A stretch of DNA of 45,961 bases, from IMG/VR virus record IMGVR_UViG_3300045988_049759. One strand, written 5' to 3'. Under the pieces are notes generated by a model. That model searched no databases and was not told where the DNA came from. It worked only from the letters and a program-made list of their open reading frames with translations. Numbering within the stretch: the first letter of the stretch is position 1; the number at the start of each line of letters is the position of its first letter. Shown piece after piece: positions 3,071 through 39,735 of this stretch. Position numbers and translations under genes: made by a program. The DNA is from a virus.

Positions 3071-5797
3071 ATGGCTACAATCAGAACAGCGATTGAATTA
3101 CAAGACAACTTCACGGGGGTTTTGTATCAGGTAATCAATTCCGTAAATTTGGGGCTTTCCGCTATGGAAGATTTGCACCAAACCATGAATAGCCCTGTTG
3201 ATACGGCTTCCATTGAAGCGGCAAGGGATTCAATCAATCAGGCTACGCTTGCGGTTCAACAGTTGGATGCAGCTATGCAGGGACTTGAAACCCCCGCTTC
3301 CGAAACACCTACCGCCCCGACAAATTCAGCCCCGGTTGTGCTTCCGGTGCAGCCGGATATTCCTGATCCGTTAGTGGATCAACCCGCCCCTGTTGATTTG
3401 CCTGTTGAACCGGAACAGCCTGAACCCGTGCAAGTTCCGGTTCACTGGCGATCTGACAACATGGAAGTATTTACTTCAACGGGCGTTGAACGCTTTGAAC
3501 AGGAAGTTCAAAGTGCAAACAATATGTTGAACACCTTGAACCAAACGCAAAGCAGGATTGCAGCACAGGCGGCACAAACAGATTTGTTCCCGGATAATGC
3601 TATTGCCGATATGAACAATATGCAAAACCGCTTGCAAGCAATTCAGCAGCGTATTCAGACAATCGAAAGCAACCCCCTGAATATGGGTTCTGATACCGCA
3701 AATGCAGAATTGGAACAGTTACGGGGGCAGTTGGATCAGGCAGTTCAGGAACAGGAAGCGTTGAACCGTGCTGTTGAAAACATGGATGTTGAAGCAGCCA
3801 ATCAAGCCTATTTGCGGTTATCTCAAACGGTAGGTAATACTGAAAGATATATCCGGGATAATGTTGACGAACAAGGGCGGTTCAATCGTGAAATTGAAGA
3901 AGGCACGAATGAAGCCGATTCCCTCATGCAGACAATCAAGGGGGCGGTTGCGGCTTATGCCACAATTCAAACCCTTTCAACAGCGTTGAATCTATCGGAT
4001 CAGCTTACTTCTACAACCGCCCGCTTGAATCTGATGAATGACGGATTGCAAACCACACAGGATTTGCAAAACATGATTTATCTTTCAGCGGAACGGGCAA
4101 GGGGCAGCTATCAGGCAACCGCTGATGCCGTTTCCAAACTTGGACTTATGGCGGGTGATGCGTTTGGGAGTTCGGAAGAAATCATTGCCTTCATGGAACA
4201 AGTAAACAAGCAGTTCACTATTGCCGGAACAGAAGCAGCGGGCATTGATGCCGCTATGTTGCAGCTTACACAGGCTATGGGTTCGGGTGTTCTTCGTGGT
4301 GAAGAATACAACAGTATTTTGGAACAAGCCCCGAATATCATTCAAGCGATTGCTGATTACATGGAAGTTCCCAAAGGGCAATTAAAGGATATGGCAGCGG
4401 AAGGGCAAATTACCGCCGATATTGTAAAGGCGGCTATGTTTGCGGCGGCTGATGATACCAACGCAAAATTTGAAAGTATGCCGAAAACCTTTTCGCAGAT
4501 TTGGACTTCTTTTCAGAATACCGCTTTGATGGCGTTTCAGCCTGTTCTTCAACGAATGAATGAAATTGCCAACAGTGAAGCATTTCAAGAGTTCGTGAAC
4601 AACGCTATTGAAGGGCTTTCAATGGTGGCGGGCATTGCCCTTGAAATCTTTGATTTGCTTGTAGGTGTTGCGGGTGCGGTGGCTGATAATTGGTCGTGGC
4701 TATCCCCTATCATTTACGGTGTAGCAGCCGCCCTTGCGGTTTATTATGGGTGGTTGTTGCTGACAAAAGGGGCTGAAATGGCTATGGCGGCGGTTCACGG
4801 GATCGTTGCGGTAGCAAAGGGCATAATGGCAGCGGCTACAATGCTTGTAACGGGTGCAACATGGGCTGAAACAACCGCACAATACGGGCTGAACGCTGCA
4901 ATGTACGCTTGCCCTATCGTGTGGATAATCATTCTTATAATCGCCCTGATTGCCCTGTTCTATGCGGCGGTGGCAGCGGTGAATAAATTCGCCGGAACTT
5001 CCGTTTCCGCAACGGGTATTATTTGCGGGGCGTTCATGGTTGCCCTTGCGTTCATAGGCAATATTTTTGTTGCCTTGTGGAATTTGGTTGTTGATGTGTT
5101 CGTGCTGATTTACAACCTTGTGGCAACCGTGGCAAACTTTATCGGCAATGTGTTCACCGATCCTATCGGGGCAGTTTGCCGATTATTCTTTGATTTGGCT
5201 GATACCGTGCTTGGAATTCTTCAAGCGTTGGCTTCGGCTATTGATGCAATCTTCGGTTCAAACCTTGCGGGAAGTGTTCAGGGTTGGCGTGATTCTCTTG
5301 GCGGTTGGGTAGATGATACCTTCGGCAAGGGTGAAGAAGTCATGGCGAAAATGAACGCTGACGATATGAAACTTGGTCGGTTTGAATACGGGGCGGCTTG
5401 GGATGCCGGATATTCCTTCGGTGAAGGCATTGATGAAAGCATTGCGAATTTCGATCCTTCCAGTTTGTTTAATACCAATGTACCCGGTGCGGATGATTAC
5501 GCAAATTTGGGAAACTACGGTTCAGGCATTGGCGGGATTGGAAGCGGTGTTGATGATATTGCCGGAAACACCGGAAAAATCGCTGACAGCATGGATATTA
5601 CAGAAGAAGATTTGAAATATCTTCGTGATATTGCAGAGCAGGAAGCGGTGAACAGATTTACAACCGCTGAAATTACCATTGAACAGACGAACCACAACAC
5701 CGTTTCCGGTAAAATGGATTTGGATGGTATTGTTTCAGGGCTAACAGATGCGGCAAATGAAGCGGTTGACAGAATAGCGGAAGGGGTGCATGAGTAA
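3071..5797 (+). CDS. Tail tape measure protein
   Basis: About 908 aa. Contains the core motif LTQAMGSGVLRGEEYNSILEQAPNIIQAIADYM and a long hydrophobic segment. ATG 3071 is preferred over GTG 3062. Confidence 0.9.
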   Translation: MATIRTAIELQDNFTGVLYQVINSVNLGLSAMEDLHQTMNSPVDTASIEAARDSINQATLAVQQLDAAMQGLETPASETPTAPTNSAPVVLPVQPDIPDPLVDQPAPVDLPVEPEQPEPVQVPVHWRSDNMEVFTSTGVERFEQEVQSANNMLNTLNQTQSRIAAQAAQTDLFPDNAIADMNNMQNRLQAIQQRIQTIESNPLNMGSDTANAELEQLRGQLDQAVQEQEALNRAVENMDVEAANQAYLRLSQTVGNTERYIRDNVDEQGRFNREIEEGTNEADSLMQTIKGAVAAYATIQTLSTALNLSDQLTSTTARLNLMNDGLQTTQDLQNMIYLSAERARGSYQATADAVSKLGLMAGDAFGSSEEIIAFMEQVNKQFTIAGTEAAGIDAAMLQLTQAMGSGVLRGEEYNSILEQAPNIIQAIADYMEVPKGQLKDMAAEGQITADIVKAAMFAAADDTNAKFESMPKTFSQIWTSFQNTALMAFQPVLQRMNEIANSEAFQEFVNNAIEGLSMVAGIALEIFDLLVGVAGAVADNWSWLSPIIYGVAAALAVYYGWLLLTKGAEMAMAAVHGIVAVAKGIMAAATMLVTGATWAETTAQYGLNAAMYACPIVWIIILIIALIALFYAAVAAVNKFAGTSVSATGIICGAFMVALAFIGNIFVALWNLVVDVFVLIYNLVATVANFIGNVFTDPIGAVCRLFFDLADTVLGILQALASAIDAIFGSNLAGSVQGWRDSLGGWVDDTFGKGEEVMAKMNADDMKLGRFEYGAAWDAGYSFGEGIDESIANFDPSSLFNTNVPGADDYANLGNYGSGIGGIGSGVDDIAGNTGKIADSMDITEEDLKYLRDIAEQEAVNRFTTAEITIEQTNHNTVSGKMDLDGIVSGLTDAANEAVDRIAEGVHE

Positions 5798-10289: not shown

Positions 10290-12047
10290 ATGGCAGAATT
10301 TTCAAAGTTGGTTATCACCAACAAAGGGCAAGCGTTACTTGCAAAAATGATTGCGGGAAGCGGCAACATTGAGTTCACCAAAATTTCAGCTTCCAGCACC
10401 GCATACACGGATGCACAGCTTGAAGGGCTTACTTCCCTTTCCAATGTGAAGCAAACAAGCCTGATTTCCAAAGTTACCCGCACAAATGAGGTTGCAATCA
10501 AGGTTGAAGCAGCCTTCACGAATACCGAACTGAAAGCCGGGTATTACATGAAGGCTTTGGGCTTGTATGCGGTTGATCCTGATGCGGGTGAAATCCTCTA
10601 TGCCGTAACAAGGGAAACTTCCGGGAATTGCTATATGCCCGCCTATAACGGTATTACCGTTTCGGGTGCGTATGTGCAGCTTGTAACTACGGTTGGAAAC
10701 GCTGAAAATGTTTCCCTTGAAGTGGATCAGGCGGCGGTTGCTACAATCGGGGATATTCAGGAGTTGCAGAAGCAGATAGCAGACCTTGAAGCCTTTATCG
10801 GCTATTCCGCTGATGATATTTACGGCGTGGAAGTGGACTTTGTAAACAAGAGATTTACCCGCCTTTCCGGGGCGGTAAACCGTACACCGGGGGCAGGGTT
10901 TGATTCAATCAATGCCTTTGGCGGGCGTAAACGCTGCAATGTTGCGGATGATGGTACAGTAACCGCCTATTATGGGGATTCAGGCTATACCACAACCGGA
11001 AAGAACGCAGCCGGAACAAAGGTTCAGGTTATGGTTGAACAGCCTAAATTCTATTACAAGGTTGTTCCTATGGTGCTTGAAAAGGGTGCAAAGGGCATGA
11101 AGATCAGGAAAGCCCGCTATTATGTTTCGGACACCCTGAAACCCGGCTTCAAGGTTCACCCCGCCTTTGTGGAAAATGGCAATGTGAACCCGTATATTTA
11201 CCTTGCAGCCTTTGAAGGTTCGCTGTTCGACACTTCCGCAAACGCCTATATTTTGGACGATGCACAGGTGGCAGATTTCGCCGCTGATGTGCTTTGCAGT
11301 ATTGCAAACGCAAAGCCCGCTTCCGGTTTAACGCAAAATCTGACAAGGGCGAACACCCGAAAGCTGGCACAAAAGAGGGGTAAAGGTTGGGAACAGGCAT
11401 ATGCCGCAACAATCGCCGCTTCGCAGCTTTTGATGCTGATTGAATACGCTTCTTTCGATATGCAGAAAGCGATTGGCAACGGCGTTGTCAACAAAACAGA
11501 TGATGGCAGCACTTCCATGACAGAGATCACCGGGGCAACCGTGAATTTGGGTAACGCTTCCGGTTCTGTTACCAATATCAACGGTTACAACATTGTTTCC
11601 TATCGTGGTGAAGAAAACATTTGGGGTAACATTTGGGCTTGGATTGACGGCATGAACGAGGAAAACCCGGCAACTTTCGCAGCGGGCGATTGTGGAACGC
11701 TTTATGTTGCGGATCATGGCTTTGTTGATGATAGCAAAGCAAGCCCCTATAAGAACACCGGAATTCACCCCGATTACGGCAACGGCTATATTTCCGCTTT
11801 CGGCTATTCGGAAGAATTTGATTGGTTGTTCGTTATGGCTGAACACACGGGCAATTCCACCCTTCCCGTTGGTGACTACTCTTGGAATAGTAATCCCGGC
11901 TGGCGGGTTACTGAGTTGGGCGGTAGATGGGATAGCGGTGCTAGTGCGGGTTCTTTCTATTGGACTCTGATTGATGCTGCTTCTCTTCGTTATCGGAGTA
12001 TCGGCGGGCGGTTGGTGTATGTACCTTCCAAAAAGGAAGCCGCTTAA
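10290..12047 (+). CDS. Tail fibre / receptor-binding protein; DGR target with a C-terminal variable region
   Basis: 585 aa, last large gene of the tail module. The C-terminus GGRWDSGASAGSFYWTLIDAASLRYRSIGGRL is the lectin-fold-type motif typical of DGR targets and is homologous to the TR. Confidence 0.85.
   Translation: MAEFSKLVITNKGQALLAKMIAGSGNIEFTKISASSTAYTDAQLEGLTSLSNVKQTSLISKVTRTNEVAIKVEAAFTNTELKAGYYMKALGLYAVDPDAGEILYAVTRETSGNCYMPAYNGITVSGAYVQLVTTVGNAENVSLEVDQAAVATIGDIQELQKQIADLEAFIGYSADDIYGVEVDFVNKRFTRLSGAVNRTPGAGFDSINAFGGRKRCNVADDGTVTAYYGDSGYTTTGKNAAGTKVQVMVEQPKFYYKVVPMVLEKGAKGMKIRKARYYVSDTLKPGFKVHPAFVENGNVNPYIYLAAFEGSLFDTSANAYILDDAQVADFAADVLCSIANAKPASGLTQNLTRANTRKLAQKRGKGWEQAYAATIAASQLLMLIEYASFDMQKAIGNGVVNKTDDGSTSMTEITGATVNLGNASGSVTNINGYNIVSYRGEENIWGNIWAWIDGMNEENPATFAAGDCGTLYVADHGFVDDSKASPYKNTGIHPDYGNGYISAFGYSEEFDWLFVMAEHTGNSTLPVGDYSWNSNPGWRVTELGGRWDSGASAGSFYWTLIDAASLRYRSIGGRLVYVPSKKEAA
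11906..12021 (+). repeat. DGR variable region (VR)
   Basis: Ungapped 116-bp alignment to 12155..12270. There are 25 mismatches, all at TR adenines. Confidence 0.9.
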
Positions 12048-12154
12048 CACCGTTGAACAAACATTGAAAAATTGAATAAAAATCGGTAGTTCAGGGAGTA
12101 TTGTTGTTTACAATCCGGTTGAACAGACGGCACTAAAACAGAAACCATGAAAAA

Positions 12155-12270
12155 GGTTACTAAATTAGGCAGTAAATGGAATAACAGTGCTAATGCAGGT
12201 ACTTTCTATTGGAATCTGAATAATGCTACTTCTAATCGTAATCGGAATATCAGCAGGCAGTTAGTAAATG
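12155..12270 (+). repeat. DGR template region (TR)
   Basis: Intergenic copy with 40 adenines. In the VR reading frame it carries 10 AAY codons. The 5' boundary may extend to about 12150 (aaaaa). Confidence 0.9.
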
Positions 12271-12466
12271 CACGATTCAGGCGGGGATTTTCCCCGCCTG
12301 TTTCAATATAAATCTGTATTCCTGAAAGACCGTGCCACATGGCAAAACAGACAGCCCCCGAAAGGGGGAAGTTAAAAATAAAATTTGGTCGTGTTGGTAG
12401 ACTTTGAAAGTTAATTTTCAAAGGTTGAAGATTCGGCTGATGTGCATACAAAAGGAACATTCAACA
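12271..12466 (+). ncRNA. TR-RT spacer; probable structured 3' part of the DGR RNA
   Basis: Three hairpins: aggcgggga-ttt-tccccgcct (12279..12299), ccccc-GAAA-ggggg (12355..12368) and ctttgaaa-gttaat-tttcaaag (12402..12423). Confidence 0.5.
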
Positions 12467-13594
12467 ATGAAGCGATATGGGAATCTATACGAACAAATTT
12501 ATTCTATGGATAACCTACGCAAAGCACACCAAAACGCACGGAAGGGAAAGGGATGGTATGAGGAAGTAAAAGCGGTTGATGCAGATGTAGAAGGCTATTT
12601 GAAACGCCTTCAAGAAATGCTTATCAATCACACCTACCAAACTTCACCTTACGAAAAATTTATCAAGCATGACAGCGGCAAAGACCGGGAGATTTTCAAA
12701 CTTCCTTACTTCCCGGATCGTATTTGTCAATGGGCGATTCTGCAAGTGATTGAACCGTATCTAATGCGGCACATGACAAAGAATACCTATTCAGCGATAC
12801 CCAAAAGAGGAATTCACGCAGCGTTGCATGATGTTCAAGATGCAATGTGGAAGGATGTTCCGAATTGCCAATATTGCTTGAAGCTGGATGTAAGGCACTA
12901 TTACCCTTCAATAAATCACGATATTTTGAAAGCAAAGTTCAGACGGGTTTTCAAAGATGGTGAATTGCTTTGGTTGTTGGATGAAATCATAGATAGCATT
13001 TGCACCGCTAACATTGAAGATATTCGTGATCTTTGGTTCTTCGATGAAGATGTTGATGAAGAAACCGGAATACCAATAGGGAACTACCTTTCCCAATATT
13101 GCGGAAACTTCTATCTTTCTGATTTTGACCACTGGATCAAAGAAGAAAAGCGGGTGAAGCATTACTTCCGTTACATGGATGATATTGTGATTTTCGGCAG
13201 CAGCAAAGAAGAACTTCATGCCCTGAAACGGGAAATTGATGTTTATTTCATGCAGGAATTACGGTTGACAGTCAAAGGGAATTGGCAAGTGTTCCCTTCC
13301 TATGTGCGGGGTGTTGATTTTGTCGGTTATCGAACCTTCCTAAATTATACCTTGCTTCGCAAGAGTAGTTGCACCAACTTCAAGAAAAAGATGGTAGCAA
13401 TCAGGAAGAAAACAGCAGGCGGGCAAATGATGAACTATTCTGAATGGTGTTCCGTGAATTCCTATAAGGGATGGCTAAAGCATTGTGACAGTTACCGCTT
13501 GCGGAAAAAGTACATTGCACCAATTCAAGACGATGCAGACCGATATTATCGGGATGTTGTCAAAACCAAAAAATATAAAAGAAAGGCGGCGTAA
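12467..13594 (+). CDS. DGR reverse transcriptase
   Basis: MKRYGNLYEQIYSMDNLRKAHQNARKGK N-terminus, IGNYLSQ motif (DGR-type [ILV]GxxxSQ) and the catalytic motif YMDD within FRYMDDIVIFG. ATG 12467 follows AAAGGA. Confidence 0.9.
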   Translation: MKRYGNLYEQIYSMDNLRKAHQNARKGKGWYEEVKAVDADVEGYLKRLQEMLINHTYQTSPYEKFIKHDSGKDREIFKLPYFPDRICQWAILQVIEPYLMRHMTKNTYSAIPKRGIHAALHDVQDAMWKDVPNCQYCLKLDVRHYYPSINHDILKAKFRRVFKDGELLWLLDEIIDSICTANIEDIRDLWFFDEDVDEETGIPIGNYLSQYCGNFYLSDFDHWIKEEKRVKHYFRYMDDIVIFGSSKEELHALKREIDVYFMQELRLTVKGNWQVFPSYVRGVDFVGYRTFLNYTLLRKSSCTNFKKKMVAIRKKTAGGQMMNYSEWCSVNSYKGWLKHCDSYRLRKKYIAPIQDDADRYYRDVVKTKKYKRKAA

Positions 13595-13597
13595 AAC

Positions 13598-13861
13598 ATG
13601 GTTGACTATGGCAGAGTAAGAAGCACCGTCAAGCCTGAACCCATTGTGATTGATGAATTCAGCGTTTGGCAGCATACCGACATTCAGGAAATTTCTGAAA
13701 ATGTGGGTGAAGAAAATGAATTCGTGGGCTATGAATTCAACATGGTTCAGTACAGCAAGGACGAATTTATTTTGCAACAGGCAACGGACAATGCGGCGTT
13801 GCAGCAGCAGATCACAGATACACAGCTTGCGTTGTGTGAAGTCTATGAACTGATGGGATAA
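13598..13861 (+). CDS. Acidic hypothetical protein (87 aa) after the RT
   Basis: The ATG lies 4 nt after the RT stop. No recognisable motif. Confidence 0.5.
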   Translation: MVDYGRVRSTVKPEPIVIDEFSVWQHTDIQEISENVGEENEFVGYEFNMVQYSKDEFILQQATDNAALQQQITDTQLALCEVYELMG

Positions 13862-17720: not shown

Positions 17721-18224
17721 TTATATTGCCTTCCCGCCTGATGATTCTTTTTGAATGGAATATTTAGGATCGGTAAGCAGAGTATCAATGATACCCTTAA
17801 TGTTTCCCCGGACTTCTGCCCGGTCAATTTCATCCAAAGTAGAATAGCTGAAAAGTAATTCGGTTATTTTGCTTCGTTCCTTTTCATTTAGTTCAAGGAA
17901 CTTTGAAAAAGCGTGTAAAGCGTCTGTTCCATACACTTCTTCAATACACTTGGCAAGTTCAACTTCTGAACATATTTGTTCAAGGTTCGCTTCGCTATCC
18001 AGCTTTTTCCATTCTTCTTCCTTGCTGAACCAGCCTGTTACTTCTTCTATGGGTAACTGTAAAACATTGGAAAGTTTTGTTATTCGATCTGCTCTTATAC
18101 TTTCAATGTTGCCGCTTTCCCACCTTTGAACAGTAGCTTCCGCAACACCCACAGCAGCGGCAACTTCCTTCAAGGTTAAGCGTAAATATTTCCGCCTTTC
18201 CTTGATTTTTGTACCCTTGTTCAC
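17721..18224 (-). CDS. cI-like repressor (XRE-family HTH)
   Basis: Motif LTLKEVAAAVGVAEATVQRWESGN. Transcribed divergently from the early operon. GTG start follows AAAGGGGGTGA. Confidence 0.8.
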   Translation of the reverse strand: MNKGTKIKERRKYLRLTLKEVAAAVGVAEATVQRWESGNIESIRADRITKLSNVLQLPIEEVTGWFSKEEEWKKLDSEANLEQICSEVELAKCIEEVYGTDALHAFSKFLELNEKERSKITELLFSYSTLDEIDRAEVRGNIKGIIDTLLTDPKYSIQKESSGGKAI

Positions 18225-18246
18225 GGGATCACCCCCTTTCTATGAT

Positions 18247-18275
18247 ATTATACTACACTTCCCGCAAGTTTTCAA
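18247..18275 (-). promoter_or_regulatory. Candidate repressor promoter TTGAAA-17-TATAAT (- strand)
   Basis: -35 at 18275..18270 and -10 at 18252..18247. Confidence 0.5.
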
Positions 18276-18326
18276 TACGCCAACGAAAGAAAATAAAAAA
18301 TTTTTCAAAAAACTTTTGTAAAGGTA

Positions 18327-18355
18327 TTGACAAACCCGAAACAGGGTGCTATACT
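18327..18355 (+). promoter_or_regulatory. Candidate early rightward promoter TTGACA-17-TATACT
   Basis: Consensus -35, 17-nt spacer and a near-consensus -10. Confidence 0.65.
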
Positions 18356-18426
18356 ATATACAGAACTTACGGAAACGAAAGTTTTCAAGCCGCTGCAACG
18401 GCAAGCATAGAAAGGATGAAGTGATT

Positions 18427-18612
18427 ATGAAGTTTACTTTTGAAGAATGGAAATTCATTCAGCATTGCATTGAATGTGCCGGGAGAGAATTTGAAAAGAT
18501 GATGCTTGACAGCACACCTTCCGACAAAGAAACAAGCTGCTATCAGATTTTCAAGCGGCAGACGGAAAAAGCAAATGCCCTTGTGGAGAAAATCAAGGGT
18601 TCTGAAATTTAA
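18427..18612 (+). CDS. First early gene; small Cys-containing protein (61 aa)
   Basis: ATG follows AGAAAGGA. No HTH recognised. Confidence 0.5.
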   Translation: MKFTFEEWKFIQHCIECAGREFEKMMLDSTPSDKETSCYQIFKRQTEKANALVEKIKGSEI

Positions 18613-18629
18613 GAAAGGCGGCAGCACAG

Positions 18630-19304
18630 ATGAAAGAAACAAGTTTGAAGCCCGTAATTGAAAAACTTGAAAGTTTATTTTCAAAGTTCAACGAAAAGTT
18701 CTATAACAATGAACTTCAAACCCCCGTTATCACGGTAAGCCCGGACACAACAAAGGGTGCTTATGGGTGGTGTACCGCTTGGAAGGCGTGGACGGTTGGC
18801 GAACAGAAGAAGGTTGCAGACCTTTCCACGCTGACAAAAGAGGATTTGGAAGCTATGAAGAAAGATGATGGCTTCTATGAAATCAATATTTGTGCTGAAC
18901 ACCTTGTAAGACCTTTTGAACAGGTTGCGGAAACCCTCTTACATGAAATGGTTCACCTTTACAATCTGCAAATTGGGGTTCAGGACACAAGCAGGGGCGG
19001 CACATACCACAATAAGAAATACAAGGAAGCCGCTGAAAAGCACGGCTTGACCGTTGAAAAGGATGCAAAATACGGGTGGACTAAAACAAGCCTGAATGAT
19101 GAAGCGAAAGCCTTTGTTGACGGTATGCAGGATAAGAAGTTTGAACTTCACAGAAAGAGCCTTCCGAAAATCCCCGGTGCGGCGAAAACCAAACAATCAA
19201 GCCGGAAATATGTTTGCCCTATGTGCGGCTGCATTATCCGGGCAACAAAGGAAGTTCATGTTATTTGCGGTGATTGCAATGTAGAGTTCGAGGAAGAAGC
19301 CTAA
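18630..19304 (+). CDS. SprT-like zinc metallopeptidase-domain protein with a C-terminal zinc ribbon
   Basis: HExxH motif in LLHEMVHLYN. C-terminal CPMCGC...CGDC. Confidence 0.7.
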   Translation: MKETSLKPVIEKLESLFSKFNEKFYNNELQTPVITVSPDTTKGAYGWCTAWKAWTVGEQKKVADLSTLTKEDLEAMKKDDGFYEINICAEHLVRPFEQVAETLLHEMVHLYNLQIGVQDTSRGGTYHNKKYKEAAEKHGLTVEKDAKYGWTKTSLNDEAKAFVDGMQDKKFELHRKSLPKIPGAAKTKQSSRKYVCPMCGCIIRATKEVHVICGDCNVEFEEEA

Positions 19305-19334
19305 ACAGCTTCTTCCCCGGAAAGGGGAATAACA

Positions 19335-20540
19335 ATGGTATATGAAATCTTTGAAGGAAACTTTGAACGCCTTGAAAAAAAGCTAAACCGCATTGGAAAC
19401 AAATGCAAGAAATACGGTTGTGATTTTTGCTTTTCGGTGATCGGTGAAACTTTCCGTGAAGTGATTGACGAAAGCACAAAAGAAAAGCACATTGCCCGCT
19501 TCATTACCGTTGAAGTAAGTGGAACGGCAAAGGTTAATGATTGGGAATTTGTTGCGGAATTGGAACACACTGAAAACGGCAATATTATCCGGGGAACAGG
19601 GATTTATGAAATTCCCGAAAGATACTATACTGGAAAGCCTGTTTGCGAACATTGCAAAAGCAACCGTTTTCGTAAAAATACCTATATTGTGAGAAACAGC
19701 ACAACAGGAGAATTCAAACAGGTTGGTAAAAGTTGCCTGATGGATTTTACAAACGGGTTAAGTGCAGAAGCGGTTGCTTCATATATCGCTTTCTTTGAAG
19801 AAGTAATTCGTGGCGAACAGGTTTTACCCGGTGGCAGCTTTGAACGATATGTTGAGATTACAGAATTTCTTCAATATGTTACTGAAACCGTAAATAAGTT
19901 CGGGTATGTGAAAAAAGCTGATGCTGATTATGGCAATGAATCAACTTGCAGTAGGGCAATTTCTTATATGATGGTTTGCAAAGGTCAAACCCGCTGGATG
20001 CCGAAACAGGAAATTGAAAGACGGTATGCAGAAATGGAAAAGGTTGCTTTTGATGCTAATTCTGATACCGTGAAGAAACAGGTTCAAGAAGCCCTTGAAT
20101 GGCTGAAACAGCAGGACGAAAGCAATAATTACTTCCATAATTTGAAAGTTGCTTGCTATTCTGAATATACCAGCATGAGAAACACCGGAATAATTGCTTC
20201 TTTAATACCCGCCCATTTCAAAGCCCTTGAAACCGAAAAGGAACGGGCTGAACGGGAAGCCCGGAAACAAAAGGAAGCAAGTTCTTCTAAATATGTTGGT
20301 GAAATCGGAAAGCGGATCAGTTTTCAACCCACAGCAATTCAGTGTTTGACTTCGTGGGAAACAATGTACGGAACAACATTTCTTTATAAAATTATAGACA
20401 CTTTCGGAAATGTGTTCACTTGGAAAACGAGTTCTTCTATTAGTGAAAATATTTCCAGCATTACGGGAACAGTCAAAAATCATTCCGTATATAACGGAGT
20501 GAAACAAACTGAACTTACAAGATGCAGGGTTGCCGCTTAA
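19335..20540 (+). CDS. Hypothetical protein (401 aa) with a CxxC...C motif
   Basis: Clean ORF with an SD. Motif CEHCKSNRF...GKSC. Confidence 0.5.
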   Translation: MVYEIFEGNFERLEKKLNRIGNKCKKYGCDFCFSVIGETFREVIDESTKEKHIARFITVEVSGTAKVNDWEFVAELEHTENGNIIRGTGIYEIPERYYTGKPVCEHCKSNRFRKNTYIVRNSTTGEFKQVGKSCLMDFTNGLSAEAVASYIAFFEEVIRGEQVLPGGSFERYVEITEFLQYVTETVNKFGYVKKADADYGNESTCSRAISYMMVCKGQTRWMPKQEIERRYAEMEKVAFDANSDTVKKQVQEALEWLKQQDESNNYFHNLKVACYSEYTSMRNTGIIASLIPAHFKALETEKERAEREARKQKEASSSKYVGEIGKRISFQPTAIQCLTSWETMYGTTFLYKIIDTFGNVFTWKTSSSISENISSITGTVKNHSVYNGVKQTELTRCRVAA

Positions 20541-20572
20541 AAACGGCAACCCACATAGAAAGGACGATGAAC

Positions 20573-20992
20573 ATGAAATACAGATATTTCAGTACACAAC
20601 GCCCGGTTGCACCGGGAACATTCCCTAAAAAGCCGGGATGTGAAATTTCAAATTATCCCCAAAAGATTTATATTGACGGAACGGGTTTTTCAGCATGGGG
20701 GCATATTGATTATGATGAACCCCTGACAGATGCGGAAGTCAATCAGTACGAATTGAAACCCGCAAGATGGGAATTCAGCGTTAGATTCAACCCGGACAAT
20801 GAACAGATGGGAAGAATTCACAAGCTGTTTGTTGAATGGTGTAAATATGTTGCGGAAGATGGCACAAAGCCCTTTGCAGATTATACATTTGAAAAGTTCT
20901 TTGAAGTGATGATGCAATCCGGCAGCTTCCACACCATGAACCGCCACATTGAAAATATGGAGTATGAAAACGGATTGAAAAGAAAGGGGTGA
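20573..20992 (+). CDS. Hypothetical protein
   Basis: MKYRYFSTQRPVAPGTFPKKPG... The start could be ATG 20567 or 20573. Confidence 0.5.
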   Translation: MKYRYFSTQRPVAPGTFPKKPGCEISNYPQKIYIDGTGFSAWGHIDYDEPLTDAEVNQYELKPARWEFSVRFNPDNEQMGRIHKLFVEWCKYVAEDGTKPFADYTFEKFFEVMMQSGSFHTMNRHIENMEYENGLKRKG

Positions 20993-20996
20993 AATC

Positions 20997-21215
20997 ATGG
21001 CATACGATTATTCAAAGTTAGCCGGAAGAATTATTGAAAAATGCGGTACACGAAAAGCCTTCGGTGAAAAAATGGGGTTTTCAGAAGCTACAATTTCAAA
21101 GAAATTGCGTGGTGAAATCCCGTTCAGACAGGCAGAGATTTCAAAAAGCATTGAAATCCTTGAACTGACAACGGATGATATTTTGGAATATTTTTTTACC
21201 GAAAAACTTTCGTAA
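20997..21215 (+). CDS. XRE-family HTH protein (72 aa)
   Basis: Motif RKAFGEKMGFSEATISKKLRGE. Confidence 0.65.
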   Translation: MAYDYSKLAGRIIEKCGTRKAFGEKMGFSEATISKKLRGEIPFRQAEISKSIEILELTTDDILEYFFTEKLS

Positions 21216-21244
21216 ACGAAAGATAGAAAGAGAGGTGAACAGCG

Positions 21245-21436
21245 TTGAAGAAAGTTATTGCAGCGTGTATTGATCGGGTTTTGGAGTTCGACACGCAGAA
21301 TGAAGCGGCAAAGTACCTTGAAACCTTGCGTGATAAGGGCAGCGAATTCAGGATTTTGCACCGTGAGGAAATCGGCGGCAAGTACCGGATCAGAATTCAG
21401 GAACAGTACAACAAAAGCCCCATGATTGAGGGCTAA
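21245..21436 (+). CDS. Small hypothetical protein (63 aa, TTG start)
   Basis: SD GAGAGGTGA is upstream. Confidence 0.4.
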   Translation: MKKVIAACIDRVLEFDTQNEAAKYLETLRDKGSEFRILHREEIGGKYRIRIQEQYNKSPMIEG

Positions 21437-21458
21437 ACAAAGAAAGGATGAAGTGATT

Positions 21459-21872
21459 ATGACATTTGCAGACAAATTGAAAAACCTTATGAAAGAACTG
21501 GATTTGACACAATCCAAACTTTCAGACCTTACCGGGATCGGTAAATCCTCTATCAGTCAATACCTTTCCGGGAAGAACGAACCTTCCAAAGACCGCAAAC
21601 AGGAAATTGCCCGTGCGTTGGGGGTTCAGGATAACTACTTTGAAATGTTTGAACCCGCTGCAACGGTTCAGCATGACGGGGTTGTGAATTTGCCCGTTAC
21701 CCTTGCGGCAAAGCTGATGAAGAAATCCAAAGAATGGGTTATGCAGGGCTTACGGGATGGCGTTTTCCCGTGGGGTTATGCGGTGAAGCTGACAAATTGG
21801 AGTTACTTTATTTCTTCCGTGAAGTTCACCGAATACACGGGAATTGAAGTTCCCTTGAATGAAATTGCCTGA
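21459..21872 (+). CDS. XRE-family HTH protein (137 aa)
   Basis: Motif LTQSKLSDLTGIGKSSISQYLSGKNEP. Confidence 0.65.
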   Translation: MTFADKLKNLMKELDLTQSKLSDLTGIGKSSISQYLSGKNEPSKDRKQEIARALGVQDNYFEMFEPAATVQHDGVVNLPVTLAAKLMKKSKEWVMQGLRDGVFPWGYAVKLTNWSYFISSVKFTEYTGIEVPLNEIA

Positions 21873-21897
21873 TGGCAGAAAGCGAGGATAAACAAAA

Positions 21898-22692
21898 ATG
21901 AGTGAAACAGGAGTTGTTAAAGGGTTCAAGGTGTTCAATCCTGATTGGACTTGTAACCCAAACGGAAAACCGTTTCAGTATGCGGTTGGCGGTACTTATG
22001 AAGAAGATGTGAAACCTATGGTTTGTGATCGGGGCTTCCACTTTTGCGAAAAGGCGGCTGATTGCTTCAATTACTATCAGTTTAACCCGGAAAACAAGGT
22101 TGCGGAAGTGCTTGCATTAGGTGAAGTCGATACAGACGGAACAAAATCTTGCACCAACAAAATTCAGATCGTGCGTGAAATTCCGTGGGCTGAATTGCTT
22201 GAAATCGTGAATACGGGAAAGGGCTGCACCGGACTTTGCAACAGCGGCAACCGGAACAGCGGCAACCGGAACAGCGGCAACCGGAACAGCGGCAACCGGA
22301 ACAGCGGCGATTGGAACAGCGGCGATTGGAACAAGTGCAGCTTTTCCAACGGGTGTTTTAACACCGTAAGCCCGAAAATTTATCTGTTCAACAAGCCTTC
22401 TGAATGGACTTATCAGGATTGGTTGAACAGTGAAGCCCGCTATTTGCTGAATCAGATTCCGGGGGATGTGCTTGAATACATTTACCTTTCGGATATGACG
22501 GATGAAGAAAAGGCAGAACACCCGGAAGCGGAAACCACAGGCGGGTATCTGAAAATTTTGGATAATTCCGAATGTGCGGTTATTTGGTGGCGTGGGCTTT
22601 CTGACCGTCAAAAAGCGGTTATCACAGCAATTCCGAATTTTGACAAGGAAATCTTCAAGCAGATCACCGGGATTGATGTTGATGCAGATTAA
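21898..22692 (+). CDS. Hypothetical protein with an internal NSGNR/NSGDW five-residue repeat
   Basis: 264 aa. Motifs GFHFCEKAADC and (NSGNR)4(NSGDW)2. Confidence 0.6.
   Translation: MSETGVVKGFKVFNPDWTCNPNGKPFQYAVGGTYEEDVKPMVCDRGFHFCEKAADCFNYYQFNPENKVAEVLALGEVDTDGTKSCTNKIQIVREIPWAELLEIVNTGKGCTGLCNSGNRNSGNRNSGNRNSGNRNSGDWNSGDWNKCSFSNGCFNTVSPKIYLFNKPSEWTYQDWLNSEARYLLNQIPGDVLEYIYLSDMTDEEKAEHPEAETTGGYLKILDNSECAVIWWRGLSDRQKAVITAIPNFDKEIFKQITGIDVDAD
22241..22330 (+). repeat. 15-bp tandem repeat x6 (4 x aacagcggcaaccgg, 2 x aacagcggcgattgg)
   Basis: Perfect in-frame tandem copies. Confidence 0.9.
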
Positions 22693-27790: not shown

Positions 27791-28255
27791 ATGGCTAACA
27801 TTTGGGATGATTTCGATAAGGCAATCGACACGGAAGGGCTTGCAAAGGATGTTGAGGAAGCAGCCGAAAACGGCGGGCGGCGTGAAGTTCCGCATGATAC
27901 TTATGAAGTGGCTATCACAAAGCTGGAATTGGTGAAATCCAAAAAGGGCGATCCGATGGTTACTTGCTGGATGAAGATTTTGGAAGGCGAGTACAAAGGC
28001 AGCTTGATCTTTATGAATCAGGTTGTAACACAGGGCTTTCAGATTCATATTGCCAATGAGTTCATGCGGGCGTTGGTTGCGGAAATGGCTGATCCGATTG
28101 ATATTCAGTTCAAGACCTACAATCAGTACGGCAACATGATTATGGATGTTATGGAAGCCATTGATAACAACTTCGAGTACCAGCTTGATTACAGAGAGAA
28201 CAGCAAGGGGTACAACGAATTTGAGATCAAGGAAGTTTATGTTCTGGAAGATTAA
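27791..28255 (+). CDS. DUF669-like protein (putative ssDNA-binding partner of Sak4-type recombinases)
   Basis: Motif YEVAITKLELVKSKKGDPMVTCWMKILEGEYKGSLIF. Called partly on context. Confidence 0.5.
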   Translation: MANIWDDFDKAIDTEGLAKDVEEAAENGGRREVPHDTYEVAITKLELVKSKKGDPMVTCWMKILEGEYKGSLIFMNQVVTQGFQIHIANEFMRALVAEMADPIDIQFKTYNQYGNMIMDVMEAIDNNFEYQLDYRENSKGYNEFEIKEVYVLED

Positions 28256-28329
28256 CGCAGAGCAACGGGGCAGCAATGCCCCGGTAATGCGGGGGAACGG
28301 TTGCAACCCCGTTCAAAACACAGAAAGGA

Positions 28330-30066
28330 GTGAATCAGGTGCTATTTTATGACTTTGAGGTTTTCGCCTATGATTGGCTTGTCGTGGTTATGGATATGAC
28401 CGCAAAGAAAACCCATGTGATAATCAATTCACCGGAAGAACTTGAAGCCTTATATAAGGCAAATATAAGGGAAATTTGGTGTGGTTTTAATAGCCGACAC
28501 TACGATCAGTACATTTTGAAAGCTATCCTTTGTGGGTTCGATCCTAAAAAGGTGAATGATTATATCATTGTGAAGGGAAATCCCGGCTGGAAGTTCAGCA
28601 GCCTTTTCAATCAATATCCCCTGAACAATTATGATGTGATGATGAACATTGACCGGGGGCTAAAGTCTTTTGAGGGGTTCATGGGAAACGATATAAAAGA
28701 AACTTCCGTTCCCTTCGATATTGACCGCAAATTGACAGAAGAAGAAATTGCTGAAACCGTCAAATATTGCAAACATGATGTTGAACAGACGGTGCAAGTA
28801 TTTCTTCAACGGAAGAAGGATTTTGAAGCCCATATTGGGCTTGTGAAATTGGCTTGTCAAGGAAAGCCCCTTGATATGTCACTAATAAGCAAAACAAAGC
28901 CGCAACTTTCGGCAATTATCCTTGATGCCACAAAGCAAGAACATGATGATGAATTTGAAATTGATTTCCCGTATTCAATGCGAATTGAAAAATATTCAAA
29001 GGTGGTTGAATGGTATGAAAACCCGGAAAACCGCTGTTATCAGAAAGACGGGAAAAAGAATCAGCTTGATATTGTGGTTGCGGGTGTTCCTCACCAATTC
29101 GGATGGGGCGGCGTACACGGGGCGATTCCAAAGTATCACGGCAAGGGTTATTTCCTGAACATGGATGTTGCTTCCCTTTATCCGTCTTTGATGGTGCAAT
29201 ACAACCTTCATAGCCGGAATATCAGCGATCCGAAAAAGTTCGTTGAAATCTACAACCAAAGGTTGAAATACAAAGCGGAAAAGAACCCGCTGCAAGCCCC
29301 GTTGAAATTGGTGCTGAATTCCACTTATGGAGTGATGAAGGATAAGAACAATGCCCTTTATGATCCCTTGCAGGCTAACCGGGTTTGTGTTTACGGGCAG
29401 TTGCTTTTGCTGGATTTGATTGAACGCCTTGAACCCTATGCACAGATCATTCAATCAAATACTGATGGCGTGCTTGTGAAGATGCCGGAAGGACAGGATG
29501 AAGATCAATGGTATAGCCTGATTGATGATATAGCCCATGAATGGGAAGTTAGAACCGGGTTGAACCTTGAATTTGACGAATACCGGGAAATCTACCAAAA
29601 GGATGTGAACAATTACATTATCCTTGATTCGTGGGGGCATTGGAAATCAAAAGGGGCGTATGTGAAGGAATTATCTTCCCTTGATTATGATTTGCCGATT
29701 GTCAACCGGGCATTGGTTGAATACATGGTGCATGGTGTACCCGTAAGAAGAACCGTTTTGGAGTGCAACGCCTTGAAGGAATTTCAGCTTGTTTCCAAAA
29801 TCAGCGGAAAATACACCCACATCTTACACGGAAGCCGGGTTGTGAAGGAAAAGTGCATTAGGGTATTTGCTTCAAAGAACACTTCTGATGCCGGGGTTCA
29901 AAAGGTTCATGCAGTAACAAAGAAGCCCGCAAAAATCCCCAATTCCCCGGAACATTGCTTCATTTGGAATGAAACGGTGAACGGGGTTGAAGTTCCTGAA
30001 AAGTTAGATAAGCAATGGTATATAGACCTTGCAAATAAAAGATTATCAGATTTTGGGGTGATGTAA
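28330..30066 (+). CDS. Family B DNA polymerase
   Basis: Exo I YDFEV, motif A DVASLYPS, motif B KLVLNSTYG and motif C QSNTDGV. The true start may be GTG 28339. Confidence 0.85.
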   Translation: MNQVLFYDFEVFAYDWLVVVMDMTAKKTHVIINSPEELEALYKANIREIWCGFNSRHYDQYILKAILCGFDPKKVNDYIIVKGNPGWKFSSLFNQYPLNNYDVMMNIDRGLKSFEGFMGNDIKETSVPFDIDRKLTEEEIAETVKYCKHDVEQTVQVFLQRKKDFEAHIGLVKLACQGKPLDMSLISKTKPQLSAIILDATKQEHDDEFEIDFPYSMRIEKYSKVVEWYENPENRCYQKDGKKNQLDIVVAGVPHQFGWGGVHGAIPKYHGKGYFLNMDVASLYPSLMVQYNLHSRNISDPKKFVEIYNQRLKYKAEKNPLQAPLKLVLNSTYGVMKDKNNALYDPLQANRVCVYGQLLLLDLIERLEPYAQIIQSNTDGVLVKMPEGQDEDQWYSLIDDIAHEWEVRTGLNLEFDEYREIYQKDVNNYIILDSWGHWKSKGAYVKELSSLDYDLPIVNRALVEYMVHGVPVRRTVLECNALKEFQLVSKISGKYTHILHGSRVVKEKCIRVFASKNTSDAGVQKVHAVTKKPAKIPNSPEHCFIWNETVNGVEVPEKLDKQWYIDLANKRLSDFGVM

Positions 30067-39545: not shown

Positions 39546-39735
39546 TATTTTACCCGTTACCCTTGAAGTGGAGTATAAGAACCCCATTTTAGGGCGGCTG
39601 TTCGCTTCCTTTGCGTGGCTGATGTTGGTGCGGTTCAAAAAGTTCAATCTGACAATGAATAATAGAACCGTGTGCAGCTTTTACCGCCTGATTGTTCCCC
39701 GCTTTGTGAAAGGCGGTGGAGTGGTTGAAGAATAG
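39526..39735 (+). CDS. Small hypothetical protein (69 aa) between the portal and the minor head protein
   Basis: ATG follows AAGGAAGGTGA. Overlaps both neighbours. Confidence 0.4.
   Translation: MKVKKIDILPVTLEVEYKNPILGRLFASFAWLMLVRFKKFNLTMNNRTVCSFYRLIVPRFVKGGGVVEE

What the first reader, a model, noticed from the sequence alone, without database searches (positions are those of the whole stretch)
11906..13594. Diversity-generating retroelement targeting the tail-fibre C-terminus
VR (11906..12021, the last 140 nt or so of the fibre gene) aligns without gaps to an intergenic TR (12155..12270). I count 25 mismatches. Every one sits at a TR adenine: 25 of 40 TR adenines differ (18 A>G, 5 A>T, 2 A>C), and 0 of 76 non-A positions differ. 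In the VR frame the TR encodes VTKLGSKWNNSANAGTFYWNLNNATSNRNRNISRQLVN, with 10 AAY codons. The VR reads VTELGGRWDSGASAGSFYWTLIDAASLRYRSIGGRLVY. An RT with the DGR-type IGNYLSQ motif and a YMDD catalytic motif starts 196 nt after the TR. This is the hallmark of adenine-specific mutagenic retrohoming, and it would diversify the receptor-binding tip of this phage.
Basis: partly seen in the sequence, partly recalled or inferred. Interest (0 to 1): 0.9.

Follow-up and report, generated by a model that had tools for sequence, protein, structure and literature searches.

The report
Active tail-fibre diversity-generating retroelement, no Avd
This gut-bacterial phage carries a working diversity-generating retroelement that rewrites about a dozen codons at the tip of its tail fibre; it is a real, clear example of a well-known system, in the known variant that lacks the usual helper protein Avd.

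Summary
VR 11906..12021 and TR 12155..12270 align without gaps, with 25 mismatches, all at TR adenines (chance about 2.5e-15). The interpretation as a DGR holds and can be strengthened.

- Nine independent contigs share a 116/116-identical TR, but eight of the nine VRs are distinct, differing almost only at TR-adenine sites.
- Among 121 fibre homologues (87% identity or more), the only hypervariable positions are the 12 codons whose TR codon has two or more adenines.
- Proteins with identical backbones carry different VRs (120 distinct VR peptides among 121 proteins).
- The RT has the DGR signature IGxxxSQ and YMDD. Its best solved relative is PDB entry 8ub7 (E 5e-33), which I take from memory to be the Bordetella phage DGR RT.
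- 17 of 22 loci encoding RT relatives, down to 28% identity, have their own adenine-specific VR/TR pair.

Refinements:
- The last 21 nt or so of the VR are never diversified and look like a GC-rich IMH.
- No Avd was found in the phage (architecture A of Wu et al. 2018).
- The TR-RT spacer holds the Rfam RT-17 RNA.
- A canonical hairpin after the VR is absent.
- The C-type-lectin fold of the target is only weakly supported.

Verdict: a new member of a known kind, of moderate interest.

The parts
10290..12047 (+). Target gene: tail fibre, 585 aa. N-terminal tail-collar fibre domain; the C-terminal 290-aa domain carries the VR at its very end.
   Evidence: Pfam PF12571 at residues 6-150. phrog_5302 'tail protein', E 4.9e-199. 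It lies directly after the baseplate J and Mu gp48-like genes. The C-terminal domain family has 2395 clusters at 50% identity, fused to many different N-termini.
11906..12000 (+). Diversified part of the variable repeat (VR), residues 540 to about 571. It may begin 2-5 nt upstream, at 11901-11904.
   Evidence: All mismatches to the TR are at TR adenines. 8 distinct VRs in 9 contigs, with 611 pairwise differences at TR-adenine sites against 26 at other sites. Entropy is 2.4-3.2 bits only at codons whose TR codon has two or more adenines.
12001..12021 (+). IMH-like 3' end of the VR (TCGGCGGGCGGTTGGTGTATG). It is GC-rich and is never diversified, although the TR has adenines opposite it.
   Evidence: The same A>G and A>T differences from the TR occur in all 9 loci. 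Residues 572-577 (GGRLVY) are invariant in 121 proteins. The analogy to the BPP-1 (GC)14 IMH element is an inference from PMC3240598.
12025..12039 (+). Weak inverted repeat CTTCC-AAAAA-GGAAG just after the VR. It is not a canonical DGR target hairpin.
   Evidence: DNA fold z-score is -1.1. A12037C breaks it in L002, L003, L006 and L008, which still have diversified VRs. The canonical form is a 7-10 bp GC-rich stem with a GRNA loop (PMC3240598).
12155..12270 (+). Template repeat (TR), non-coding. It may start at 12150-12153. Its last 21 nt or so (12250..12270) correspond to IMH*.
   Evidence: 116/116 identical in 9 contigs whose flanks differ. It has 40 adenines, 10 AAY codons and 2 AAA codons in the VR frame. 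The overlapping 54-aa ORF (12147..12311) is not conserved: a 1-nt indel in L002, L003 and L006, and the ATG is lost in L008.
12278..12300 (+). Conserved 9-10 bp GC-rich stem-loop immediately 3' of the TR.
   Evidence: -13.2 kcal/mol, z -6.0. A compensatory G12281C/C12297G change is seen in L001, L004, L005 and L007. A hairpin with an unrelated sequence sits at the same place in L011, L013, L015, L018, L021 and L029.
12328..12452 (+). RT-17 RNA (Rfam RF03020), the structured spacer between TR and RT. Rfam reports 12350..12451. By eye, the first consensus hairpin is at 12328..12348 and 12349..12372 is a lineage-specific inserted hairpin.
   Evidence: 46.8 bits against a gathering score of 40.4. 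The same family, at 41-67 bits, ends 13-21 nt before the RT start in 10 relatives. Sequence comparison. The TR-to-RT region folds with z -3.85.
12441..12446 (+). GUGCAU in the invariant GCAUACA tail of the spacer. It is proposed to pair with AUGCAC at the TR 3' edge (12268..12273).
   Evidence: 94% of cells are paired in 21 distinct sequences. Two pairs have compensatory changes. 12 of 500 shuffles reach that pair count and 2 of 500 reach the covariation score. This is suggestive only, because the structure was derived from these same sequences.
12467..13594 (+). DGR reverse transcriptase, 375 aa, pI 9.05.
   Evidence: Pfam RVT_1, E 2.2e-16. phrog_1423, E 8.8e-137. Best PDB match is 8ub7, a 328-aa reverse transcriptase, at E 5e-33, against group II and retron RTs at 5e-17 or weaker. 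It has the signature I-G-N-Y-L-S-Q and YMDD, and the equivalents of bRT R74 and I181 are conserved (PMC7826257). 17 of 22 loci encoding relatives have an adenine-specific VR/TR pair.

Best explanation
This is a functional diversity-generating retroelement (DGR) of the accessory-gene-free type (target-VR, TR, RT; 'architecture A1'). It sits in a temperate contractile-tailed phage of gut Lachnospiraceae and other Clostridia. An RNA containing the TR and the structured RT-17 spacer is reverse transcribed by the RT encoded just downstream. That RT misincorporates opposite template adenines only. The mutagenised cDNA replaces the VR at the 3' end of the tail-fibre gene. Replacement stops at a GC-rich IMH-like element, so the last six VR codons and the TR itself never change. 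The result is a fibre tip with 12 strongly variable residues plus several weakly variable ones (about 5e17 possible peptides), presumably changing receptor specificity.

Shown here: the repeat anatomy; the adenine-restricted hypervariation in natural populations with an invariant TR; the DGR-type RT; the RT-17 RNA; and no detectable Avd.

Inferred by analogy with Bordetella phage BPP-1: RNA templating; self-priming from the spacer, possibly positioned by the pairing of 12268-12273 with 12441-12446; cDNA homing; and the effect on host range.
For: Anatomy:
- 25 of 25 mismatches fall at TR adenines, P about 2.5e-15.
- These are the only two copies in the window.

Activity in nature:
- The TR is identical in 9 contigs, yet 8 of the 9 VRs are distinct. 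Pairwise VR differences number 611 at TR-adenine sites and 26 elsewhere.
- In 121 fibre homologues, entropy is 2.4-3.2 bits at exactly the 12 codons with two or more TR adenines, and near 0 at codons without adenine.
- Identical 552-aa backbones carry different VRs (10 proteins with 10 VRs; 120 distinct VRs among 121). Mean pairwise identity is 64% in the VR and 92% elsewhere.

RT:
- The best solved relative is 8ub7 at E 5e-33. Reading that entry as the Bordetella phage bRT is from my memory of the bRT sequence and its 328-aa length, not from a tool.
- It carries the [I/V/L]GxxxSQ signature and the R74 and I181 equivalents (PMC7826257).
- It fails the curated cut-offs for group II intron, retron and Drt models.
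- 17 of 22 loci encoding relatives, down to 28% identity, carry adenine-specific VR/TR pairs.

RNA:
- RT-17 is found between TR and RT here and in 10 relatives. This is the position of RT-10 in BPP-1 (PMC5737381).

Modularity:
- L039 and L040 are relatives in which the TR and nearly all of the RT are cleanly deleted, leaving an orphan VR.
Against: - No read-level or experimental evidence of diversification within one population; the evidence is variation between contigs.
- No Avd was found. Avd is essential in the only well-studied DGR, so the biochemical steps may differ.
- There is no canonical GC-rich GRNA hairpin after the VR.
- The C-type-lectin fold of the target is not established. The model has pLDDT 55. 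The top PDB match is TaqVP, but only at Foldseek E 0.077 and profile E 0.048.
- Four relatives have one non-adenine VR difference each.
- Substitutions at polymorphic sites are G-biased (94 G, 26 T, 15 C), unlike the dATP-dominated misincorporation reported for bRT in vitro (PMC7826257). Selection on the protein could explain this.
Confidence: 0.93

Rival explanations
1. It is a canonical Avd-dependent DGR. The Avd is simply too divergent to detect, or is supplied in trans by the host or by another prophage.
For: Avd proteins are 'very poorly conserved' (PMC5758913). My search covered only the 34 small ORFs of this window with Pfam and NCBIfam profiles. Host genomes were not searched.
Against: There is no ORF between the VR and TR (107 nt) or between the TR and RT (196 nt), here or in relatives with 60-98% RT identity. 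The only conserved neighbour is the 87-aa gene at 13598..13861. It is acidic (pI 4.05), whereas Avd is basic, and it also occurs in 10 relatives without a DGR. Wu et al. found no trans-encoded avd for cassettes lacking one and describe a whole RT lineage without it (PMC5758913).
Confidence: 0.1
2. It is a decayed or fossil DGR. The VR/TR pattern records past activity, and this copy no longer works.
For: Decay does happen in this lineage. L039 and L040 have lost the TR and RT, and L094 and L106 keep only an RT remnant of about 80 aa. There is no direct activity measurement for this window.
Against: The RT ORF is intact with all catalytic motifs. The TR is identical to that of 8 other contigs. 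Relatives with identical fibre backbones carry different VRs, so diversification is faster than ordinary divergence.
Confidence: 0.04
3. The RT belongs to another retroelement (a group II intron, a retron or a defence RT). The fibre-tip variation would then come from recombination and positive selection on a duplicated segment.
For: NCBIfam gives sub-threshold hits to group II RT/maturase (112 bits against a cut-off of 300), Drt3a and a retron RT.
Against: All of those hits are far below their curated cut-offs. Rfam finds no intron or retron RNA in the window. The RT has IGxxxSQ rather than QGxxxSP (PMC7826257). Selection or recombination cannot confine 611 of 637 pairwise VR differences to TR-adenine sites while keeping the TR invariant.
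Confidence: 0.01

Closest known systems
Bordetella phage BPP-1 DGR (mtd-avd-TR-brt)
   Same: - A phage tail-fibre target with the VR at the extreme C-terminus.
- Adenine-specific TR-to-VR information flow.
- AAY-rich TR codons.
- An invariant GC-rich 3' end of the VR (IMH-like).
- A structured spacer RNA between TR and RT.
- An RT with the IGxxxSQ and YMDD motifs; its best solved relative is 8ub7, which I read as bRT.
   Different: - No avd gene.
- No 8-bp GC-rich GRNA hairpin after the VR.
- The spacer RNA is Rfam RT-17, not RT-10 (PMC5737381).
- The RT is 47 aa longer, with a basic C-terminal tail.
- The observed substitution spectrum is G-biased.
- The host is a Gram-positive gut anaerobe.
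Architecture A (A1: target-TR-RT, no accessory gene) DGRs and the avd-less 'Lineage 3' of Wu et al. 2018 (PMC5758913)
   Same: The gene order is target/VR, then TR, then RT on one strand, with no avd, HRDC, MSL or CH1 gene. That paper reports this architecture for 75 of 372 DGRs.
   Different: I did not place this RT in their tree, so membership of Lineage 3 in particular is untested. Linking the RT-17 RNA to this architecture is my own observation.
TaqVP (PDB 5VF4), Mtd and TvpA: FGE-type C-type-lectin-fold DGR variable proteins
   Same: TaqVP is the top hit both for the sequence profile (three collinear stretches, including VR on VR) and for the structure model. The VR is C-terminal, about 38 residues long, with invariant aromatic residues (W547, W558) and a non-variable last strand, as described for TaqVP (PMC6328139).
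   Different: Both matches are below significance (E 0.048 and E 0.077, TM 0.38) and the model is of low confidence (pLDDT 55). No Pfam FGE-sulfatase hit appears even at E 10. The domain here is 290 aa and belongs to a large family of its own.
DGR-bearing gut phages (crAss-like phages, Faecalibacterium and Bacteroides phages)
   Same: Their RTs are 38-47% identical to this one. Their tail-fibre proteins match the model in BFVD (for example the cr55_1 tail fibre, E 7.8e-6).
   Different: They are different phage lineages. No GenBank phage record shares nucleotide similarity with this cassette, and the closest RT among phage records is 51.5% identical (Psychrobacillus phage Perkons).

Membership tests
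Diversity-generating retroelement (DGR) | A TR/VR repeat pair whose differences are (almost) exclusively at TR adenines | tested here: met
   25 of 25 mismatches are at adenines and 0 of 76 non-adenine positions differ, P about 2.5e-15. The same holds in 8 related contigs, with 0-1 non-adenine differences each.
Diversity-generating retroelement (DGR) | An adjacent RT of the DGR clade, with the signature [I/V/L]GxxxSQ motif and YxDD | tested here: met
   IGNYLSQ and YMDD are present. The best PDB hit is 8ub7 at E 5e-33, against 5e-17 or weaker for group II and retron RTs. 17 of 22 loci encoding RT relatives have adenine-specific repeats. The motif definition is from PMC7826257. No formal phylogeny was made.
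Diversity-generating retroelement (DGR) | The VR lies at the 3' end of a protein-coding target, with TR adenines concentrated in AAY codons | tested here: met
   The VR ends 26 nt before the fibre stop codon. The TR has 10 AAY and 2 AAA codons in the VR frame.
Diversity-generating retroelement (DGR) | Evidence of ongoing diversification: the VR is hypervariable at adenine-templated sites while the TR is invariant | tested here: met
   using comparison between contigs and between proteins. Variation within one sample was not testable with these tools.
Diversity-generating retroelement (DGR) | An IMH at the VR 3' end, differing from IMH* in the TR, that sets directionality | tested here: inconclusive
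   A GC-rich stretch of about 21 nt (12001..12021) differs from the TR at 6 adenines and is invariant in all relatives. This fits an IMH/IMH* pair, but the function was not tested.
Diversity-generating retroelement (DGR) | A GC-rich hairpin or cruciform (7-10 bp stem, GRNA loop) 4-34 bp after the VR (PMC3240598) | tested here: not met
   Only a 5-bp stem (CTTCC/GGAAG) with an AAAAA loop is present. Its z-score is -1.1, and it is broken in 4 relatives that still have diversified VRs.
Diversity-generating retroelement (DGR) | The accessory protein Avd (present in 74% of DGRs, so not universal; PMC5758913) | tested here: not met
There is no room for such a gene inside the cassette. This matches architecture A of Wu et al.
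Diversity-generating retroelement (DGR) | The variable protein has a C-type lectin (or Ig) fold that displays the VR | tested here: inconclusive
   TaqVP (5VF4) is the top hit by profile (E 0.048) and by Foldseek (E 0.077, TM 0.38). The model is weak (pLDDT 55; the first attempt gave pLDDT 30). There is no Pfam hit.
Diversity-generating retroelement (DGR) | A structured spacer RNA between TR and RT (RT-10 in BPP-1) | tested here: met
   Rfam RT-17 scores above its gathering threshold here and in 10 relatives, always just upstream of the RT. The region folds with z -3.85. Its role in priming was not tested.
Group II intron | Intron RNA domains flanking the RT ORF, and an RT/maturase that reaches the family cut-off | tested here: not met
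   Rfam finds no intron domains in the window. TIGR04416 scores 112 bits against a cut-off of 300. The motif is IGxxxSQ, not QGxxxSP.
Retron or defence RT (Drt, Abi) | An RT that reaches the family cut-off, with an msr/msd RNA or an effector partner | tested here: not met
   Retron St85 scores 42 bits against a cut-off of 235, Drt3a 63 against 200, and Drt2 48 against 390. No retron RNA is found. The neighbours are fibre and lysis genes.

The most novel reading that the evidence does not exclude
This clade may carry out Avd-independent mutagenic retrohoming. In this reading the RT-17 RNA, perhaps together with the RT's extra basic C-terminal tail, takes over Avd's roles. The invariant GCAUACA tail of the spacer would pair with the TR 3' edge (12268-12273 with 12441-12446) and set the priming site. 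That would make this a minimal two-component DGR (one RNA, one protein) that is naturally abundant in human-gut Clostridia phages.
Probability: 0.35. Interest if true: 0.55.

Novelty: new member of a known kind. Interest (0 to 1): 0.35.

Why it matters
It documents a clearly active DGR acting on a phage receptor-binding protein in a widespread lineage of gut Clostridia prophages. Thousands of natural fibre variants are already in public data.

Because the cassette has no Avd and a compact, conserved spacer RNA (RT-17), it is a convenient natural system for asking how accessory-free DGRs prime and home. It is also a candidate minimal scaffold for directed-evolution tools. A cultured carrier of a relative exists: Otoolea muris DSM 111138, with an RT 83% identical.

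The analysis also gives a likely function to an orphan Rfam family. RT-17 would be the DGR spacer RNA of this clade. Weinberg et al. 2017 only speculated that RT motifs other than RT-10 might serve in DGRs (PMC5737381).

Tried and rejected
- **C-type-lectin fold by sequence.** Pfam on the fibre C-terminus, even at E 10, gave nothing. A phmmer search and a shallow-profile search of PDB gave only noise.
- **First AlphaFold run.** With 36 near-identical sequences it failed (pLDDT 30). A more diverse alignment, obtained through, raised this only to pLDDT 55.
- **Near-identical GenBank phage.** Megablast of the cassette found none.
- **The 87-aa acidic gene after the RT (13598..13861) as a new DGR accessory gene.** Rejected. 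It follows the RT in 66 of 80 loci, but it directly follows the fibre gene in 10 relatives without a DGR, and it survives the TR-RT deletion in L039 and L040.
- **The 54-aa ORF over the TR (12147..12311) as a gene.** Rejected. Its frame or its start codon is broken in L002, L003, L006 and L008, and it has no family hit.
- **The inverted repeat after the VR as the canonical target hairpin.** Rejected.
- **A second, remote VR in the window.** None found with up to 3 mismatches.
- **Later work tying RT-17 to DGRs.** A literature search found nothing.
- **Promoter and terminator scan.** Uninformative.


Full report
**Observation**

The sequence is as described. VR 11906..12021 aligns without gaps to TR 12155..12270. 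There are 25 mismatches, all at TR adenines (18 A>G, 5 A>T, 2 A>C). 25 of the 40 TR adenines differ and none of the 76 other positions do. The chance that 25 random mismatches all fall on the 40 adenines is 2.5e-15. A pattern of the TR with every A replaced by N matches only these two places in the window, with none expected in shuffles.

The VR is the end of a 585-aa ORF (10290..12047). An ORF starting at ATG 12467, 196 nt after the TR, encodes a 375-aa reverse transcriptase with IGNYLSQ and YMDD.

**Context**

The window looks like a whole temperate, contractile-tailed phage genome. It encodes:
- tail sheath, tail tube, XkdN-like chaperone, sheath initiator, baseplate J and a Mu gp48-like protein;
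- then the fibre, the TR and the RT;
- an 87-aa gene, a holin, an amidase-SPOR endolysin and an integrase on the opposite strand;
- repressors, a replication module, terminase and portal.

The fibre has an N-terminal tail-collar fibre domain (PF12571) and matches phrog_5302 'tail protein' along its full length. Close relatives of the RT (98% identity) lie in an uncultured Lachnospiraceae genome. More distant relatives (60-91%) occur in Otoolea muris, other Lachnospiraceae, Peptococcaceae, Oscillibacter and Enterococcus timonensis. No GenBank phage record shares nucleotide similarity with the cassette.

**Is it an active DGR? Population evidence**

A scan of IMG/VR with the A-to-N degenerate TR pattern found 8 more contigs. 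In all 9 contigs the TR is identical at 116 of 116 positions, even though the flanking intergenic DNA falls into two diverged groups. Each contig has a VR 224-249 nt upstream that differs from the TR at 25-29 adenine positions and at 0-1 other positions. Eight of the nine VRs are distinct. Pairwise VR differences number 611 at adenine-templated sites and 26 elsewhere.

At the protein level, I examined the query plus 120 homologues of 87-96% identity.
- The only hypervariable positions (2.4-3.2 bits, 7-14 different residues) are the 12 codons whose TR codon has two or more adenines: AAA twice and AAY ten times, minus the last AAT (see the IMH paragraph below).
- Codons with one adenine vary modestly or not at all, and codons with none mostly stay below 0.4 bits (one, 565, reaches 0.95).
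- Proteins whose remaining 552 residues are identical carry different VRs (10 proteins with 10 VRs). There are 120 distinct VR peptides among 121 proteins.
- Mean pairwise identity is 64% in the VR against 92% elsewhere.

It was obtained from variation between contigs, not from reads within one sample.

**The RT**

Its best solved relative by far is PDB 8ub7, a 328-aa reverse transcriptase (E 5e-33). Retron-type and group II intron RTs score 5e-17 or weaker. The 8ub7 sequence shown (IGSLTSQ motif, 328 aa) matches what I remember of Bordetella phage bRT; the tool itself names it only 'Reverse transcriptase'.

In that alignment the query keeps the DGR signature [I/V/L]GxxxSQ, whereas group II and retroviral RTs have QGxxxSP. 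It also keeps the equivalents of bRT Arg74 and Ile181, the two residues shown to promote adenine mutagenesis (PMC7826257). Curated NCBIfam models for group II RT/maturase, retron and Drt RTs are hit only far below their cut-offs. Rfam finds no intron or retron RNA in the window.

As a functional test, I looked at 22 genomic loci encoding relatives of this RT at 28-98% identity. Seventeen have their own adenine-specific repeat pair next to the RT. Several of the others are truncated contigs.

**Refinements to the anatomy**

1. **An IMH-like 3' end.** The last 21 nt or so of the VR (12001..12021, TCGGCGGGCGGTTGGTGTATG) differ from the TR at six adenines, always in the same way, in all 9 loci. 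Residues 572-577 (GGRLVY) are invariant in all 121 proteins. So the 3' boundary of information transfer lies between VR 12000 and 12003, at the start of a GC-rich run. This is what the IMH/IMH* arrangement of BPP-1 would predict (PMC3240598, PMC6328139).
2. **The 5' edge.** It may lie a few bases upstream of 12155. TR 12150-12154 is AAAAA, and residue 539 shows rare G, W and K variants that fit a TR codon of AAG.
3. **No canonical hairpin after the VR.** The canonical target hairpin is a 7-10 bp GC-rich stem with a GRNA loop. Here there is only a 5-bp stem with a 5-A loop, which is not significant (z -1.1) and is broken in four relatives that are nonetheless diversified.
4. **No Avd.** There is no room for one between the VR, TR and RT. 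None of the 34 small ORFs in the window matches an Avd or four-helix-bundle model among the Pfam and NCBIfam families listed. This is the accessory-free 'architecture A' that Wu et al. found in 75 of 372 DGRs. They also described an RT lineage lacking avd and proposed Avd-independent homing (PMC5758913).
5. **The 87-aa gene is not an accessory gene.** The acidic gene after the RT (13598..13861) follows the RT in 66 of 80 related loci. It also follows the fibre gene directly in 10 relatives without a DGR, and it remains in L039 and L040, where the TR and nearly the whole RT have been cleanly deleted.
6. **The ORF over the TR is not a gene.** The 54-aa ORF (12147..12311) is not conserved.

**The RNA between TR and RT**

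- Rfam's RT-17 family is found at 12350..12451, scoring 46.8 bits against a gathering score of 40.4. It is also found in 10 relatives at 41-67 bits, always ending 13-21 nt before the RT start.
- Comparison with those relatives suggests that the family's first hairpin is really at 12328..12348, and that 12349..12372 is an inserted hairpin specific to this sub-lineage.
- Weinberg et al. described RT-1 to RT-19 near RT genes. They tied only RT-10 to a DGR (the BPP-1 TR-RT spacer) and speculated that others might also serve in DGRs (PMC5737381). I found no later paper on RT-17. Here RT-17 occupies the analogous position in a DGR clade.
- A strong stem-loop directly 3' of the TR (12278..12300, z -6) is supported by a compensatory change and by hairpins of unrelated sequence at the same place in diverged relatives.
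- The invariant spacer tail GCAUACA can pair with the TR 3' edge (GUGCAU 12441-12446 with AUGCAC 12268-12273). In 21 distinct sequences 94% of cells are paired and two pairs show compensatory changes. 12 of 500 shuffles reach that pair count and 2 of 500 reach the covariation score. This would place the spacer next to the reverse-transcription start, as Sp A56 is placed next to TR G117 in BPP-1 (PMC7826257). The helix was derived from these same sequences, so it is only a lead.

**The target fold**

The 290-aa C-terminal domain belongs to a large family (2395 clusters at 50% identity) that is fused to many different N-termini. It has no Pfam hit. A profile of diverse members has TaqVP as its best PDB match. 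TaqVP is the Thermus DGR variable protein (5VF4), which has an FGE-type C-type-lectin fold. The match has three collinear stretches, with VR aligned on VR, but E is only 0.048 (PMC6328139).

AlphaFold models were poor (pLDDT 30, then 55 with pTM 0.57). Foldseek with the better model again puts TaqVP first (E 0.077, TM 0.38), well ahead of everything else. In the viral library the model matches metagenomic 'tail collar fiber' proteins and a crAss-like tail fibre. Two independent methods point to the same protein, but neither is significant, so I score this feature as inconclusive.

**Mechanism and verdict**

The best explanation is adenine-specific mutagenic retrohoming from the TR to the VR by the adjacent RT, diversifying the fibre tip. 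There are 33 adenines in the diversified part of the TR. This allows about 7e19 DNA variants and about 5e17 peptide variants.

Shown here are the anatomy, the DGR-type RT, the RNA element, the invariance of the TR, and hypervariation restricted to adenine-templated sites. RNA templating, self-priming, cDNA integration and the effect on host range are inferred from the BPP-1 system. How the reaction proceeds without Avd is unknown.

One feature I cannot explain with confidence is the substitution spectrum. At polymorphic adenine sites it is G-biased (94 G, 26 T, 15 C), whereas bRT in vitro most often misincorporates dATP (PMC7826257). Selection on the protein may account for this.

The element is a new member of a known kind. 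It is of moderate interest, mainly as a clean, abundant, Avd-free example with an identifiable spacer RNA.

Noticed in passing
window 28256..28312 (+): A type-P5 twister ribozyme (Rfam RF02684, 58.4 bits against a gathering score of 37.6). It lies in the replication module, between a DUF669 gene (27791..28255) and a gene with a weak DNA polymerase B match (28330..30066).
   Followed up: no
window 39716..42223 (+): The Mu-F-like minor head protein is fused to a C-terminal ADP-ribosyltransferase exoenzyme domain (PF03496, E 2.6e-16). It may be an injected toxin or effector.
   Followed up: no
L039 about 3385..3500 and L040 (IMG/VR 3300023312_000140 and 3300045988_014039), corresponding to window about 12113 to 13540: These relatives have lost the TR and nearly the whole RT through one clean deletion. 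The junction joins the sequence upstream of the TR to the last 55 nt or so of the RT gene. What remains is an orphan VR that still has the GC-rich IMH-like end. L094 and L106 keep only an RT remnant of about 80 aa.
   Followed up: partly
window 13598..13861 (+): An 87-aa acidic protein (pI 4.05, phrog_18126, function unknown). It always lies between the fibre/DGR and the holin, and is conserved down to 45% identity. It is present with or without the DGR, so it is a phage gene of unknown role rather than a DGR accessory gene.
   Followed up: yes
window 12278..12300 (+): A strong GC-rich stem-loop directly 3' of the TR, followed by UUUC. Its structure is conserved while its sequence is replaced in diverged relatives, but I saw no such hairpin in L017. 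It looks like a terminator, yet it sits between the TR and the spacer RNA, which should be co-transcribed. Its role is unexplained.
   Followed up: partly
VR 11906..12000 across window and L001-L008: At polymorphic adenine-templated sites the substitutions are G-biased (94 G, 26 T, 15 C, 97 A retained). Three relatives share the same non-adenine change (T>G at TR position 53), and L003 has another at position 94.
   Followed up: no
window 18200..21900 and 42423..43043: Small ORFs of the window match a DarA C-terminal (anti-restriction) domain, a VRR-NUC nuclease, an HD-domain protein and several Cro/CI-type repressors. The batch output does not say which ORF carries which match, so these coordinates are only approximate.
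   Followed up: no
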